NCBI GenBank assembly: GCA_003556525.1 | Contig: PWRH01000095.1 | Location: forward strand, 1-24,805 | DNA length: 24,805 nucleotides | From: Candidatus Nealsonbacteria bacterium | GTDB taxonomy: Bacteria > Patescibacteriota > Minisyncoccia > Minisyncoccales > RBG-13-42-11 | Reading direction: 5' to 3' | Part shown: one piece after another, positions 7,646-20,242 of the stretch | How positions within the stretch are numbered: position 1 is the first letter of the stretch | How the letters are laid out: every line of letters starts with the position of its first letter | Program-made: the position numbers and the translations under genes | The notes under the pieces: model-generated | Database searches by the model: none | Seen by the model: the letters and a program-made list of their open reading frames with translations, nothing else | What the model was told of the DNA's origin: nothing

Positions 7646-8095
7646 ATGAAAATATTGGCGGAAAATAAAAAAGCAAACTACAAATATTCAATTTTGGAAA
7701 AATTTGAAGCCGGCATTGTCTTAAAGGGGCAGGAGGTTAAATCAATAAAAACCAAGGGGGTAAATTTGACAGGGTCTTATGTTGCTCTTAAAAATCAGGA
7801 GGTTTTTTGGCTGGGCTCAAAAATTCCGGCCTATCAGCCGAAAAATGCACCTCAAAATTACCAACCGGAAAGGCCGAGAAAACTGCTTTTAAAAAAAAAT
7901 GAAATCAAACAGCTGATCGGAAAAACAAAAGAAAAAGGCTTGACTTTGGTGCCTTTAATGGTGTATATTAAAAAAAATAAAATAAAACTAAAGTTTGCCA
8001 CGGCAAAAGGCAAAAAAAAGTTTGATAAAAGAGAATCAATCAAAAAAAGAGAGATTGAAAGAAGTATTAAAAAAGAGTTGAAAGTAAGGGGATGA
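7646..8095 (+). CDS. smpB: SsrA-binding protein
   Basis: ENKKA..Y...EAGIVLKGQEVKSIK, RPRKLLLKK, GKKKFDKRESIK; adjacent to tmRNA. Confidence 0.97.
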   Translation: MKILAENKKANYKYSILEKFEAGIVLKGQEVKSIKTKGVNLTGSYVALKNQEVFWLGSKIPAYQPKNAPQNYQPERPRKLLLKKNEIKQLIGKTKEKGLTLVPLMVYIKKNKIKLKFATAKGKKKFDKRESIKKREIERSIKKELKVRG

Positions 8096-8435
8096 AAAGA
8101 TTCGATGGAGCATTGATTAAAATAAGCAGGCCAAGTTTTTTGGAGCTTGTAAAAACCAATAAAAAAATAAGTGCAAACTTATTCAAACAAGAACCCGCTT
8201 TAGCTTACGCTTAAAGCGGCATCTGATTTGCTGATTCTCGCTAGGCAAAACCCAGGTGTAATATTTAGCGGGACGAAATAACTGCTTTCCGGTTCAAAGG
8301 CGTTATTGGAAAAAATTGGACCAAAAATAAAGAAATTTTTCCTGTTTCAATTCTTTATTTTTAAAAAAACAGGATAAGCTTGTAGAATTATTTTAAAAAA
8401 TGTTTCAGACGCGGGTTCAAATCCCGCCATCTCCA
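8088..8435 (+). ncRNA. ssrA: Transfer-messenger RNA
   Basis: 5' GGGGATG (8088-8094) pairs with CATCTCC (8428-8434) including the G3.U Ala determinant, discriminator A8435. T-arm GCGGG-TTCAAAT-CCCGC. Internal tag frame preceded by ATAAGT. Confidence 0.96.
8173..8214 (+). other. tmRNA tag reading frame, (A)ANLFKQEPALAYA*
   Basis: GCA resume codon at 8173 and TAA at 8212-8214. The stop lies in the CCGCTTTA...TAAAGCGG hairpin. Confidence 0.85.
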
Positions 8436-8461
8436 CATTTAATTAATAATTTTTAAAAAAC

Positions 8462-17961: not shown

Positions 17962-18672
17962 TCACAAAGGCTGCTTTTTTGCTATAATATAAATATTGGT
18001 CCTTGGGTCTTTCCCGTCCTGCCAAAGTTTTTCCAAACTAAAACCGCTTTTTTTTGCCAAGCCAATAAGGCTTTTTTTGGTAAAGCAATGAAAATACCTT
18101 TGAGCAATAACCTCTTTTTGCGAATTTTTCCAAGAAACAAAAACATCGAAAAAATCCAACTTTGATTTGCCGATAAGTTTTAAAATAAAATATTTTAAAA
18201 TAAGCTTTCTGCCCTCTTTTCTCCTCCAAAAGTCCCAAACTCTTAAAACTAAAAGCCCTTCAGGCTTTAAAACCCTTTCTATTTCCTTTAAATATCTTAT
18301 TCTTAGTTCTTTTGAAGGAATATGGTGTATTACGGAAATACTGAAAACCTTATCGAAAAAATTATCCGGAAAAGGCAAGTTTAAAGCGTCAGTTACTTGA
18401 AAATTTGCTTGAGGATATCTTTTTTTGGCTATTTCGATCAATTCTTTGGAAATATCAATACCAAAATAATCAATTTTTTTGTCTTTTAAGACCTCAAAAA
18501 AGCGGCCACTGGCACAACCCGAATCCAAAACTTTTTCTCCCTCTAAAACATAATCAGCCAAGCCCCTGATATTGTCCGGAATAAAAGATCTGGTTCTTGT
18601 ATAGTCTTGTGCCAAAATATCGTAATCTTTTTCGGTTTGATCCATTATTTTTTTTGCATAATTTAAATTCAT
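17962..18672 (-). CDS. Class I SAM-dependent methyltransferase, Trm9/ALKBH8-like
   Basis: VLDSGCASGRF (motif I), GIDIS, DALNLPF, SISVIHHIP..ELR, LRVW, DVFVSW, RYFHCF. Start reassigned from TTG 18714 to ATG 18672 (MNLNYAKK, 236 aa). Confidence 0.88.
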   Translation of the reverse strand: MNLNYAKKIMDQTEKDYDILAQDYTRTRSFIPDNIRGLADYVLEGEKVLDSGCASGRFFEVLKDKKIDYFGIDISKELIEIAKKRYPQANFQVTDALNLPFPDNFFDKVFSISVIHHIPSKELRIRYLKEIERVLKPEGLLVLRVWDFWRRKEGRKLILKYFILKLIGKSKLDFFDVFVSWKNSQKEVIAQRYFHCFTKKSLIGLAKKSGFSLEKLWQDGKDPRTNIYIIAKKQPL

Positions 18673-20242
18673 GAATTTTTTAGAAGAAACAATTAAAGAA
18701 TTAATCAAAAGCAATGCTCAAGATTTTGAAAAATTGGCCCAAATTAAAAGAAAGGTTGCCAAAAAACATAAAATTTCCTGTCCGAGCAATGCCAATCTAT
18801 TAAAAGCTTATCACGGCCTTTTAAATAAAAAAAGAGTTAAAAAGTCGCAAAAAATTGAACATTTACTTCAAACAAAACCAATTCGGTCCATTGCCGGAAT
18901 AGTCAATGTGTCTGTTTTAACAAAACCCTACCCTTGTCCGGGCAAGTGCCTTTATTGCCCTCAAGAAAAAAATATTCCCAAAAGCTATTTATCCGGGGAG
19001 CCTGCTGTTGAAAGAGCTAAAAAATTAAACTACAACCCCTATCTGCAAGTAAGTAAAAGAATTGAAATGCTGGAATACGGAGGCCATCCCACAGATAAGG
19101 TTGAAATAAGAATTGTTGGAGCAACCTGGTCTTATTATCCCTTGAAATACCGGGAAAATTTTATTAAGCAGTGTTTTAGGGCATGTAATAGCAAAACAAA
19201 AAAAACCGATTTAACTCTTAGTCAGGAACAGAAAAAAAATGAAAAGGCCAAACACAGGGTTGTCGGTCTTTCCATTGAAACAAGGCCTGATTTTATCAAT
19301 CAAAAAGAGATTGAAAGACTGAGAATGTTTGGAGTAACAATGGTTGAGCTCGGGGTCCAGTCAATAAATAACGATGTTTTAAAAATAAATCTAAGAGGGC
19401 ACGAAATTCAAGAAACAATCTCAGCAACAAAAATGCTAAAAGATGCCGGCTTTAAGGTTTTATACCAAATAATGCCCAATTTACCCGGGTCAAATCCAAA
19501 CAAAGACAAAAAAATGTTTATCGAGCTTTTTTCAAACCCGGACTTTCAGCCGGATCTCTTAAAAATATACCCTTGTGCTCTTTTAAAAAACGCTCCGCTT
19601 TATAATCTTTGGAAAGATAAAAAATATAAACCTTACACCGAAAAAGAGTTGATAAATCTTGTTAGAGAAATCAAAAAAACAATTCCTTGCTATGTCAGAA
19701 TACAAAGAATAAGTAGAGATATTCCCTCAAAAACCATTGTTTCAGGCCCTGCTAAAATTTCCAACCTACGGCAAATTCTTAGTGAGGATGCAAAAAAAAA
19801 TAAAAAAGTTTTTTGCATTAACGATAGGCCGTGCCGCTGCATCAGATGTCGCGAGGTCAAAGAAAAATATATTAAAAAAGAAAAAGTTTTACTTTGGAGA
19901 GAAGATTATCGGGCATCCGAAGGGAAAGAAATTTTTTTAAGCTTTGAAAACAAACAAAGAACAAAACTTTACAGTTTGCTCCGTCTCCGCTTAACTTCCG
20001 AAAATAAAGCTATTATCAGGGAAATCCATACATATGGAAAGCTTGTTCCCATAAATAAAAAACAAGAAGCTCCCCAGCATAAAGGTTTGGGAAAAAAACT
20101 TGTTTTGGAAGCGGAAAAAATAACAAAAAAAGAGTTCAATCTCAAAGAAATAAGCGTAATTTCTTCGGTTGGAACAAGAGATTATTTCAGAAAGCTGGGC
20201 TATAAATTAAAAAACACCTATATGGTCAAGTCTTTGAAATAA
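18671..20242 (+). CDS. elp3: Elp3 radical-SAM/KAT tRNA U34 modification enzyme
   Basis: RSIAGIVNVSVLTKP, CPGKCLYCP (CX3CX2C), ETRPD, VELGVQS, MPNLPG, KIYPC, RIQRISRDIP, CRCIRCRE, IREIHTYG, QHKGLGKKL..EAE, GTRDYFRKLGY. Confidence 0.95.
   Translation: MNFLEETIKELIKSNAQDFEKLAQIKRKVAKKHKISCPSNANLLKAYHGLLNKKRVKKSQKIEHLLQTKPIRSIAGIVNVSVLTKPYPCPGKCLYCPQEKNIPKSYLSGEPAVERAKKLNYNPYLQVSKRIEMLEYGGHPTDKVEIRIVGATWSYYPLKYRENFIKQCFRACNSKTKKTDLTLSQEQKKNEKAKHRVVGLSIETRPDFINQKEIERLRMFGVTMVELGVQSINNDVLKINLRGHEIQETISATKMLKDAGFKVLYQIMPNLPGSNPNKDKKMFIELFSNPDFQPDLLKIYPCALLKNAPLYNLWKDKKYKPYTEKELINLVREIKKTIPCYVRIQRISRDIPSKTIVSGPAKISNLRQILSEDAKKNKKVFCINDRPCRCIRCREVKEKYIKKEKVLLWREDYRASEGKEIFLSFENKQRTKLYSLLRLRLTSENKAIIREIHTYGKLVPINKKQEAPQHKGLGKKLVLEAEKITKKEFNLKEISVISSVGTRDYFRKLGYKLKNTYMVKSLK

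What the first reader, a model, noticed from the sequence alone, without database searches (positions are those of the whole stretch)
18665..18678. Two divergent genes start on the same CATG within a 14-bp palindrome
Seen: AAATTCATGAATTT is a perfect palindrome; the elp3 ATG is 18671-18673 and the likely methyltransferase ATG is 18672-18670, leaving no intergenic DNA. Each promoter must lie in the other gene's coding region (a weak TTGATC-N16-TAATTT-N6-ATG is visible for elp3). Inference: enforced co-inheritance and possible mutual transcriptional interference, or one dimeric regulator site covering both starts.
Basis: partly seen in the sequence, partly recalled or inferred. Interest (0 to 1): 0.66.

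Follow-up and report, generated by a model that had tools for sequence, protein, structure and literature searches.

The report
Two divergent genes sharing one CATG start
In this tiny CPR bacterium, two back-to-back genes for tRNA wobble-uridine modification (Elp3 and a Trm9-like methyltransferase) start on the same four bases, CATG; relatives keep this spacer-free layout, but the surrounding 14-bp palindrome is a chance by-product.

Summary
AAATTCATGAATTT (18665-18678) is a perfect palindrome. The elp3 ATG (18671-18673) and the methyltransferase ATG (18672-18670, minus strand) overlap by 2 nt.

The refuting case, a methyltransferase start at 18645, is rejected. In 112 distinct homologous N-termini, an ATG aligns with 18672 every time. 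Tyr5 and Ala6 are conserved, Ala with all four codons. The residue matching 18645 is Leu in 91 and Met in 4.

The palindrome is not conserved: 29 of 37 CATG-sharing clusters have nothing beyond CATG. It exists because both genes begin ATGAATTT, so it is not an operator.

What is conserved is the missing spacer. In an even sample of the order, 70 genomes carry both genes on one contig. Of these, 23 have CATG, 13 have CATATG, and 55 have starts within 9 nt. A second, more distant class shows the same pattern. Other divergent pairs in this genome lie a median of 123 nt apart.

The genome rarely uses Shine-Dalgarno sites (6.7% of genes) and has leaderless-type promoters. Elp3 has a weak one, TTGATC-N16-TAATTT-N6-ATG. 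Each promoter must lie inside the partner gene. No RNA data were available, so this mechanism is inferred.

The parts
18670..18673 (.). CATG shared by the two start codons. ATG 18671-18673 is elp3 (+). The complement of 18670-18672 is the methyltransferase ATG (-). The coding sequences overlap by 2 nt.
   Evidence: The same CATG sharing occurs in 36-37 of 59 clusters, in 23 of 70 genomes of an even order-level sample, and in the distant L024.
18665..18678 (.). 14-bp perfect palindrome AAATTCATGAATTT. It exists because both genes begin ATG AAT TT.
   Evidence: It is not conserved and is at chance level.
18671..20242 (+). elp3: a radical-SAM/GNAT tRNA U34 carboxymethylating enzyme, 523 aa.
   Evidence: TIGR01211 scores 539 bits against a cut-off of 350. 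E = 6e-125 to M. infernus Elp3 6IA8 and 1e-107 to D. mccartyi Elp3 5L7J. Pfam finds Radical_SAM, Radical_SAM_C, ELP3_N and GNAT.
17962..18672 (-). Trm9-like class I SAM methyltransferase, 236 aa, starting MNLNYAKKIMDQ.
   Evidence: Pfam Methyltransf_11. The family profile aligns to Y. lipolytica Trm9 5CM2 over positions 49-215, including the DVxVPW and RY[YF]H blocks. Some JGI homologs are named TRM9.
18643..18645 (-). Internal Met codon (residue 10) that the public gene call used as the start. Rejected as the start.
18659..18664 (+). Candidate -10 box TAATTT for elp3, 6 nt before its ATG (leaderless geometry). It is made from methyltransferase codons 3-5, including Tyr5.
   Evidence: Sequence. 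A TAnnnT hexamer sits at exactly this spacing in 30 of 37 CATG clusters, against 22.5 expected from synonymous shuffling (z = 2.8). The genome shows a peak of -10-like boxes at spacer 6. Inference only.
18637..18642 (+). Candidate -35 box TTGATC, 16 nt upstream of TAATTT, inside methyltransferase codons 11-12.
   Evidence: Sequence. It is not conserved in relatives and is below the threshold of the strict scan. Weak.
18677..18682 (-). Best -10-like hexamer for the methyltransferase (TAAAAA), 4 nt before its ATG. It lacks the final T and sits too close, so it is not a convincing promoter. The methyltransferase promoter is unidentified.

Best explanation
SHOWN: elp3 and a Trm9-like methyltransferase gene sit head to head with no spacer, and their ATGs interlock in CATG. 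This is one state of a deeply conserved layout in Patescibacteria. The two start codons overlap (CATG, ATGCAT), abut (CATATG) or lie a few nt apart in most genomes of the window's order and in a second, more distant class. The 14-bp palindrome is a by-product of both genes beginning ATGAATTT.

INFERRED: the layout is possible because this organism starts translation without Shine-Dalgarno leaders and uses leaderless or very short-leader mRNAs, so no untranslated DNA is needed between the genes. Each gene's promoter lies in the first codons of its partner. For elp3, the -10 box would be formed by methyltransferase codons 3-5, with conserved Tyr5 giving the 'TA', placed 6 nt before the ATG so that transcription would begin at the A. 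RNA polymerase footprints at the two promoters would overlap, so initiation in the two directions would be mutually exclusive. Every base of CATG belongs to a start codon, so only small insertions can change the junction, for example a duplication of AT giving CATATG. This fits the alternative states seen.
For: Start codons.

Conservation:
- All 16 orthologous genome loci have a divergent Elp3 neighbour, and 12 of 17 including the window share CATG.
- Of 59 clusters at 90% identity, 36-37 have CATG, 6 CATATG, and 9 a gap of 1-3 nt.
- In the even order-level sample (101 genomes, 78 families), 70 carry both genes on one contig: 23 CATG, 13 CATATG, and 55 within 9 nt.
- CATG is scattered over the tree, needing at least about 12 changes.
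- A distant SAG has CCATGG.
- In its class, 22 of 29 loci with a methyltransferase hit have a divergent Elp3. Seven of these are CATATG and 12 of 22 have starts within 4 nt.

The pair is exceptional: the 26 divergent pairs in this genome have a median gap of 123 nt.

Initiation without leaders:
- Only 6.7% of 539 genes have an SD core at -18..-4.
- -10-like boxes peak 6 nt before the ATG, for example TTGACA-N17-TATTAT-N6-ATG.
- TAnnnT lies 6 nt before the elp3 ATG in 30 of 37 clusters.
- Relatives with a larger gap carry TATAAT-like boxes 8-13 nt before the methyltransferase ATG, for example L135, L172 and L152.

Literature: divergent overlaps are the rarest overlap class, attributed to the demands of initiation signals, and are commoner in Archaea (PMC2174442).
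Against: - There is no transcript evidence. No RNA run was listed.
- A strict sigma-70 scan finds no promoter on either strand in 18450-18900.
- The elp3 motif matches only 7 of 12 consensus positions, and its -35 is not conserved.
- The TAnnnT excess over synonymous shuffling is modest (z = 2.8), the clusters are related, and protein sequence plus AT-rich codon usage largely explains it.
- No acceptable -10 box lies at a leaderless distance for the methyltransferase. The common TAAAAT is only 4 nt away, which is too close.
- The layout could be a passive result of deletion bias.
- The junction is not truly locked, since it changed state many times.
Confidence: 0.6

Rival explanations
1. Long overlapping 5' UTRs. 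Both promoters lie well inside the partner gene, so the two mRNAs are antisense to each other over tens of nt. The pair would then be regulated by transcriptional interference or by RNA duplex formation (excludon-like).
For: No convincing promoter lies close to the methyltransferase ATG. TAnnnT boxes 10-13 nt upstream of the methyltransferase ATG exceed the synonymous null in some clusters (z = 4-6.5). In several relatives a conserved GC-rich hairpin lies just upstream of the methyltransferase ATG inside elp3 and would be part of such a leader.
Against: No strong sigma-70 match occurs deeper in either gene in the window. The genome's clear promoters sit very close to their start codons. Long leaders without an SD are not this genome's usual style. 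There are no RNA data.
Confidence: 0.25
2. Passive compaction. The missing spacer has no regulatory meaning. Deletion bias in a streamlined genome removed all dispensable DNA, and start-codon constraints then held the junction in place.
For: The genome is small (644 kb), with same-strand gaps of median 21 nt. Every base of CATG is constrained by a start codon. The alternative states differ only by small insertions.
Against: Other divergent pairs in the same genome keep a median of 123 nt. The tight spacing persists through at least about 12 changes of state and across two classes, which suggests a bound on spacer length rather than a frozen accident. This reading still requires promoters inside coding DNA, so it does not replace the mechanism.
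Confidence: 0.25
3. One reading: the 14-bp palindrome is the binding site of a dimeric regulator that covers both starts.
For: The palindrome is perfect and centred exactly on the shared CATG. Only 0.2% of CATG sites in the genome extend this far.
Against: It is not conserved. Of 37 CATG clusters, 29 have no extension, which is no more symmetry than two random gene starts would give. The arms are simply codons 2-3 of both genes (ATG AAT TT). 14-bp palindromes occur at chance frequency in the window.
Confidence: 0.04
4. The methyltransferase starts at Met 18645, as in the public gene call, leaving an ordinary 25-nt gap.
For: The database protein for this window is 227 aa. A few homologs were called at that position.
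Against: An ATG aligns with 18672 in 112 of 112 distinct N-termini. Y5 and A6 are under amino-acid-level selection. The 18645 position is Leu in 91 of 112.
Confidence: 0.04

Closest known systems
Head-to-head (divergent) overlapping genes of prokaryotes
   Same: Two genes on opposite strands whose 5' ends overlap. Surveys describe this class as the rarest kind of overlap (PMC2174442, PMC2716372).
   Different: Many reported cases are suspected start-codon mis-calls. Here both starts are fixed by homolog N-termini. The overlap is the minimal 2 nt of interlocked ATGs. The layout is conserved across an order and a second class, and it joins two enzymes of one pathway. I found no paper describing a conserved CATG start sharing.
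Divergent overlapping promoters with leaderless mRNAs (C-protein-controlled restriction-modification systems, qseC-qseM of ICEMlSymR7A)
   Same: Two divergent promoters overlap so closely that they cannot act independently. At least one transcript is leaderless (PMC8789080, PMC5333194).
   Different: Those systems have an intergenic operator region bound by a dedicated dimeric regulator and act as switches. Here there is no intergenic DNA, no conserved operator and no regulator gene nearby, and the products are housekeeping tRNA-modification enzymes.
Symmetric bidirectional promoters (shared -10 element, divergent starts about 18 bp apart; recalled from Warman et al. 2021, not read here)
   Same: Divergent transcription arises from one short AT-rich stretch.
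   Different: In that type the two transcripts point away from a shared -10 box and do not overlap. Interlocked ATGs force each start to lie at or behind the other, so the transcripts must overlap by at least 2 nt. The geometry is incompatible.
Eukaryotic/archaeal Elongator-Trm9 pathway (Elp3 makes cm5U34; Trm9-Trm112 makes mcm5U34)
   Same: The Elp3 is full-length and scores above the family cut-off. The methyltransferase shares Trm9's fold and most of its functionally mapped residues.
   Different: The host is a bacterium. No Trm112 was found. The counterpart of H116 is Asn in most relatives (His in the window) and Y243 is Phe. The bacterial MnmA is present, while MnmG and MnmE are not found. 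The product has not been measured.

Membership tests
Elp3 (TIGR01211) | Whole-protein score above the curated cut-off, with radical-SAM and GNAT/KAT domains in one chain | tested here: met
   539 bits against a cut-off of 350. Pfam finds Radical_SAM, Radical_SAM_C, ELP3_N and Acetyltransf_10. The protein aligns end to end with solved Elp3 6IA8 at E = 6e-125.
Elp3 (TIGR01211) | Cysteine triad for the radical-SAM 4Fe-4S cluster | tested here: met
   CPGKCLYC aligns with CPHGKCIFC of M. infernus Elp3.
Trm9/ALKBH8 tRNA (cm5U34) methyltransferase | Class I SAM methyltransferase fold with the SAM-binding Asp (ScTrm9 D72) | tested here: met
   Pfam Methyltransf_11 at E = 3.6e-24. The Asp of LDSGC is invariant and aligns with VDIGC of YlTrm9.
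Trm9/ALKBH8 tRNA (cm5U34) methyltransferase | Residues needed for activity in ScTrm9: R29, H116, W145, W168, R241, Y243, N271 (PMC4678810) | tested here: inconclusive
   W145, W168 and R241 have invariant counterparts in the HMMER alignment to YlTrm9. R29 (the R of RTR) and N271 (TNIY) are matched only by motif and position, because they lie outside the aligned 49-215. H116 is His in the window but Asn in most relatives. Y243 is Phe throughout.
Trm9/ALKBH8 tRNA (cm5U34) methyltransferase | Closest solved relative is Trm9 | tested here: inconclusive
   YlTrm9 5CM2 ranks second (4e-15), just behind the uncharacterised PH0226 1VE3 (1.7e-15). No NCBIfam model is passed.
Trm9/ALKBH8 tRNA (cm5U34) methyltransferase | Obligate Trm112 partner | tested here: not met
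   No PF03966 match in G000 (completeness estimate 100%), while the control genomes give matches.
Trm9/ALKBH8 tRNA (cm5U34) methyltransferase | Methyl-esterifies cm5U34 to mcm5U34 | not testable with these tools
   The only support is conserved adjacency to elp3.
Head-to-head overlapping gene pair | Both 5' ends verified, with coding sequences overlapping on opposite strands | tested here: met
Leaderless mRNA | Transcription starts at the A of the start codon; -10 box about 6-7 nt upstream | tested here: inconclusive
   elp3 has TAATTT 6 nt upstream, and 30 of 37 clusters carry TAnnnT there. The methyltransferase has no suitable box. No RNA data exist.
Operator for a dimeric regulator | Inverted repeat conserved among orthologous loci | tested here: not met
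   29 of 37 CATG clusters have no symmetry beyond CATG.
Symmetric bidirectional promoter (shared -10) | Divergent, non-overlapping transcripts with starts about 18 bp apart | tested here: not met
   Interlocked ATGs force the transcripts to overlap (geometry).

The most novel reading that the evidence does not exclude
The junction is a compact, two-way leaderless expression unit. The first four or five codons of each gene encode the -10 box of the other, and both transcripts begin at the interlocked AUGs. RNA polymerase can then fire only one way at a time. This would tie together the output of two successive tRNA U34-modification enzymes (Elp3, then the Trm9-like methyltransferase), and selection would hold the spacer near zero across Patescibacteria.
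Probability: 0.3. Interest if true: 0.75.

Novelty: new variant of a known kind. Interest (0 to 1): 0.55.

Why it matters
Divergent gene overlaps are the rarest overlap class because two sets of initiation signals normally need room. Here a zero-spacer, start-sharing pair is verified and kept across two classes of CPR bacteria.

That implies promoters embedded in coding sequence and translation without leaders in organisms whose gene expression has hardly been studied. It gives a small, testable model (about 100 bp) for overlapping divergent initiation.

It also corrects a start codon that automatic annotation places 27 nt too far downstream.

The pair marks a lineage-wide tRNA pathway: Elp3 and a Trm9-like enzyme are present, while MnmG was not found in 101 sampled genomes. 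That pathway may replace the usual bacterial MnmEG route.

Tried and rejected
- RNA evidence: two searches of public runs listed only DNA runs from salt- and soda-lake metagenomes and no RNA run.
- A strict sigma-70 and terminator scan of 18450-18900 gave no promoter and one weak terminator-like site inside the methyltransferase gene.
- TTG 18714 as the methyltransferase start was rejected. The extension is not conserved and only two gene calls have one.
- A TTGAGC-N18-TTTAAT-N19-ATG promoter for the methyltransferase, found by eye, was rejected because the hexamer lacks the essential A at position 2.
- The palindrome as an operator was rejected.
- The 3' end of 16S rRNA was sought to judge the anti-SD. 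Only a possible fragment at a contig edge (C28) turned up, which is inconclusive.
- The GC-rich hairpin of relatives has no credible Rfam match and does not occur in G000.
- One genome search failed on a parameter error and was corrected.
- The literature searches found no paper linking Elp3 with Patescibacteria or CPR and none on conserved CATG start sharing. The library is not exhaustive.
Full report
**1. What is in the sequence**

Positions 18665-18678 read AAATTCATGAATTT, a perfect palindrome centred on CATG at 18670-18673.

On the plus strand, ATG 18671 opens a 523-codon frame. It is the first ATG/GTG/TTG after an in-frame stop 12 nt upstream.

On the minus strand, a frame runs from 18714 to 17962 with three possible starts: TTG 18714, ATG 18672 and ATG 18645.

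**2. The genes**

The plus-strand protein is an Elp3:
- It scores 539 bits on TIGR01211, against a cut-off of 350.
- It aligns end to end with the solved Elp3 of Methanocaldococcus infernus (E = 6e-125) and of Dehalococcoides mccartyi, including the cluster cysteines.
- Pfam finds Radical_SAM, Radical_SAM_C, ELP3_N (from residue 3) and GNAT domains.

The minus-strand protein is a class I SAM methyltransferase (Methyltransf_11).
- A profile of its family aligns with Yarrowia Trm9 (5CM2) over positions 49-215. This includes the blocks that lie beyond the generic fold, DVxVPW and RY[YF]H. The E-value is 4e-15, just behind an uncharacterised Pyrococcus protein.
- Seven ScTrm9 residues shown to matter for activity are listed in PMC4678810.
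- W145, W168 and R241 have invariant counterparts in that alignment.
- R29 and N271 have plausible counterparts by motif only.
- H116 is His in the window but Asn in most relatives.
- Y243 is Phe.
- No NCBIfam model is passed.

I call it Trm9-like, not a proven Trm9.

**3. Which start does the methyltransferase use?**

The public gene call for this window starts at 18645 (227 aa).

Thirty-three homologs at 60-69% identity mostly begin M-[DE]-x-x-Y-A-x-Y-L-L. This aligns without gaps to the window's MNLNYAKKIM.

I collected junctions from three sources: species-representative genomes, metagenomes and an even sample of the order. They gave 112 distinct N-terminal sequences:
- The codon aligned with 18672 is ATG in all 112.
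- Tyr5 is present in 90.
- Ala6 is present in 108, written with all four Ala codons. That pattern shows selection on the amino acid, so the stretch is translated.
- The residue aligned with the 18645 Met is Leu in 91 and Met in 4.

**4. Is the palindrome meaningful?**

As a 14-bp palindrome it is ordinary. The window has five, and Markov simulations give 5.4 +/- 2.4.

It is symmetric because both genes begin ATG AAT TT.

Among 37 related clusters that share CATG, the symmetry beyond CATG extends as follows:

| Extra symmetric bp per side | Clusters |
|---|---|
| 0 | 29 |
| 1-4 | 7 |
| 5 | 1 (the window) |

Two random genes of this genome share their first 5 nt after ATG with p = 0.014. That predicts about 0.5 such cases in 37 clusters. 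The palindrome is a by-product, so the 'dimeric regulator site' reading fails.

**5. What is conserved**

All 16 orthologous loci from species-representative genomes have Elp3 as the divergent neighbour. In 12 of 17, counting the window, the in-frame Elp3 ATG overlaps the methyltransferase ATG as CATG.

With metagenome loci added there are 93 loci in 59 clusters at 90% identity:

| Junction state | Clusters |
|---|---|
| CATG | 36-37 |
| CATATG | 6 |
| 1-3 nt gap | 9 |
| ATGCAT | 1 |
| Gap over 40 nt | 2-3 |

To avoid bias towards close relatives, I searched an even sample of the window's order (101 genomes, 78 families). Elp3 scores above its cut-off in 76 genomes and the methyltransferase profile hits 75. 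Seventy genomes have both genes on one contig:

| Junction state | Genomes (of 70) |
|---|---|
| CATG | 23 |
| CATATG | 13 |
| Gap of 1-4 nt | 12 |
| Gap of 6-8 nt | 4 |
| Overlap of 6 or 8 nt | 2 |
| Gap of 11-37 nt | 9 |
| Gap of 56-116 nt | 3 |
| Gap over 300 nt | 3 |
| Unclear | 1 |

So 55 of 70 have the two starts within 9 nt of each other.

On a weakly resolved tree, CATG against other states needs about 12 changes, or 3 if only well-supported branches are counted. CATG is clustered, but it is present in at least 21 families. The junction is therefore dynamic, yet it stays tight.

A distant single-cell genome (Elp3 44% identical, methyltransferase 30%) has CCATGG with the same interlocked starts. 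In a sample of its class, 22 of 29 loci with a methyltransferase hit have a divergent Elp3. Seven of these are CATATG, one is CATG, and 12 of 22 have starts within 4 nt.

By contrast, the 26 divergent pairs I could define in the window's own genome have a median gap of 123 nt. Only one other candidate CATG pair exists (dnaE/rnhB), and its rnhB start is ambiguous.

**6. How it may work (inference)**

With no spacer, each promoter must lie in the partner's coding sequence. Either the mRNAs have no leader, or their leaders are antisense to the partner.

Three observations favour short or absent leaders:
- Only 6.7% of 539 long ORFs have an SD core at -18..-4.
- -10-like boxes peak exactly 6 nt before start codons. 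Textbook examples include TTGACA-N17-TATTAT-N6-ATG.
- Relatives with a larger gap carry TATAAT-like boxes 8-13 nt before the methyltransferase ATG.

For elp3, the window has TTGATC-N16-TAATTT-N6-ATG. The TAnnnT box at this exact spacing is present in 30 of 37 CATG clusters. It is formed by methyltransferase Tyr5 (giving TA), codon 4 and the last base of codon 3. Synonymous shuffling predicts 22.5, so z = 2.8.

This evidence is suggestive only:
- The clusters are related.
- The excess over the null is small.
- The -35 is not conserved.
- A strict scan finds no promoter.

For the methyltransferase I found no acceptable box at a leaderless distance. The common TAAAAT lies 4 nt from the ATG, which is too close. 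Its promoter is unknown, and the overlapping-UTR rival stays open.

If both starts are near the ATGs, polymerase footprints overlap and firing is mutually exclusive. No RNA run could be listed.

**7. Comparison with what is known**

Surveys of prokaryotic overlaps describe divergent overlaps as strikingly under-represented, attribute this to the demands of initiation signals, and find them commoner in Archaea (PMC2174442; PMC2716372).

Divergent overlapping promoters with leaderless transcripts are known in C-protein-controlled restriction-modification systems and in qseC-qseM. Those have an operator region and a dedicated regulator (PMC8789080).

I found no description of a conserved start-codon-sharing pair, and none of Elp3 in Patescibacteria.

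I therefore rate this a new variant of a known kind.

**8. Context**

G000 has an estimated completeness of 100% and contamination of 4.2%. It has no MnmG, no MnmE above cut-off and no Trm112, but it does have MnmA. MnmG is above cut-off in 0 of 101 genomes of the order. The pair may therefore supply the lineage's only route to C5-modified wobble uridines. The product has not been measured.

Noticed in passing
L003:2764-2795; also L132, L148, L149, L127 (just upstream of the methyltransferase ATG, inside the elp3 frame): A GC-rich hairpin, CCCCGTAGG-[variable stem-loop]-CCTTCGGGG, sits in frame as a 12-17 aa insert (e.g. TPKESLRDPTGQ) after about residue 6 of Elp3 in several families. The inner stem shows compensatory changes. 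Further copies lie elsewhere in genomes G073, G068 and G041; none is in G000. There is no credible Rfam match. It looks like a dispersed palindromic element that tolerates in-frame insertion, as I recall for Rickettsia palindromic elements, or a regulatory hairpin.
   Followed up: partly
whole genome G000 and its order: No MnmG, no MnmE above cut-off and no Trm112 were found in G000 (completeness estimate 100%), while MnmA is present at C4:3167-4180. MnmG is above cut-off in 0 of 101 sampled genomes of the order and Elp3 in 76 of 101. This suggests a lineage-wide Elp3-based route to xm5U34.
   Followed up: partly
G000:C21:8787-8792 (L187:3388-3393): dnaE (minus strand, PHP domain from residue 5) and rnhB (plus strand) may also share a CATG. 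However, rnhB has three further ATGs 21-27 nt downstream and its Pfam domain begins at residue 28, so this case is unproven.
   Followed up: partly
window 18643-18672: The public protein for this gene starts at Met 18645 (227 aa). The homolog N-termini show the start is 27 nt upstream, so this is an annotation error likely to recur in relatives where position 10 is Met, or Leu read as a start.
   Followed up: yes
methyltransferase codons 5 and 8 across 112 loci (window 18658-18660 and 18649-18651): Tyr5 is TAC in 63 and TAT in 27, while Tyr8 is TAT in 62 and TAC in 11. TAT followed by GCN creates an out-of-frame ATG 11 nt after the start. Avoiding a competing AUG near the 5' end would fit leaderless initiation. 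The window itself has TAT GCA.
   Followed up: no
window 8088-8438 (+): Rfam finds a full-length tmRNA (141 bits) that ARAGORN did not report. Its 5' end lies inside the end of the 7646-8095 ORF, as another first-stage note says.
   Followed up: partly
whole genome G000: The genome is SD-poor: 6.7% of long ORFs have an SD core, and position -3 is A in 59%. A sub-population of promoters has its -10 box exactly 6 nt before the start codon, e.g. upstream of C2:1815 and C4:6717.
   Followed up: partly
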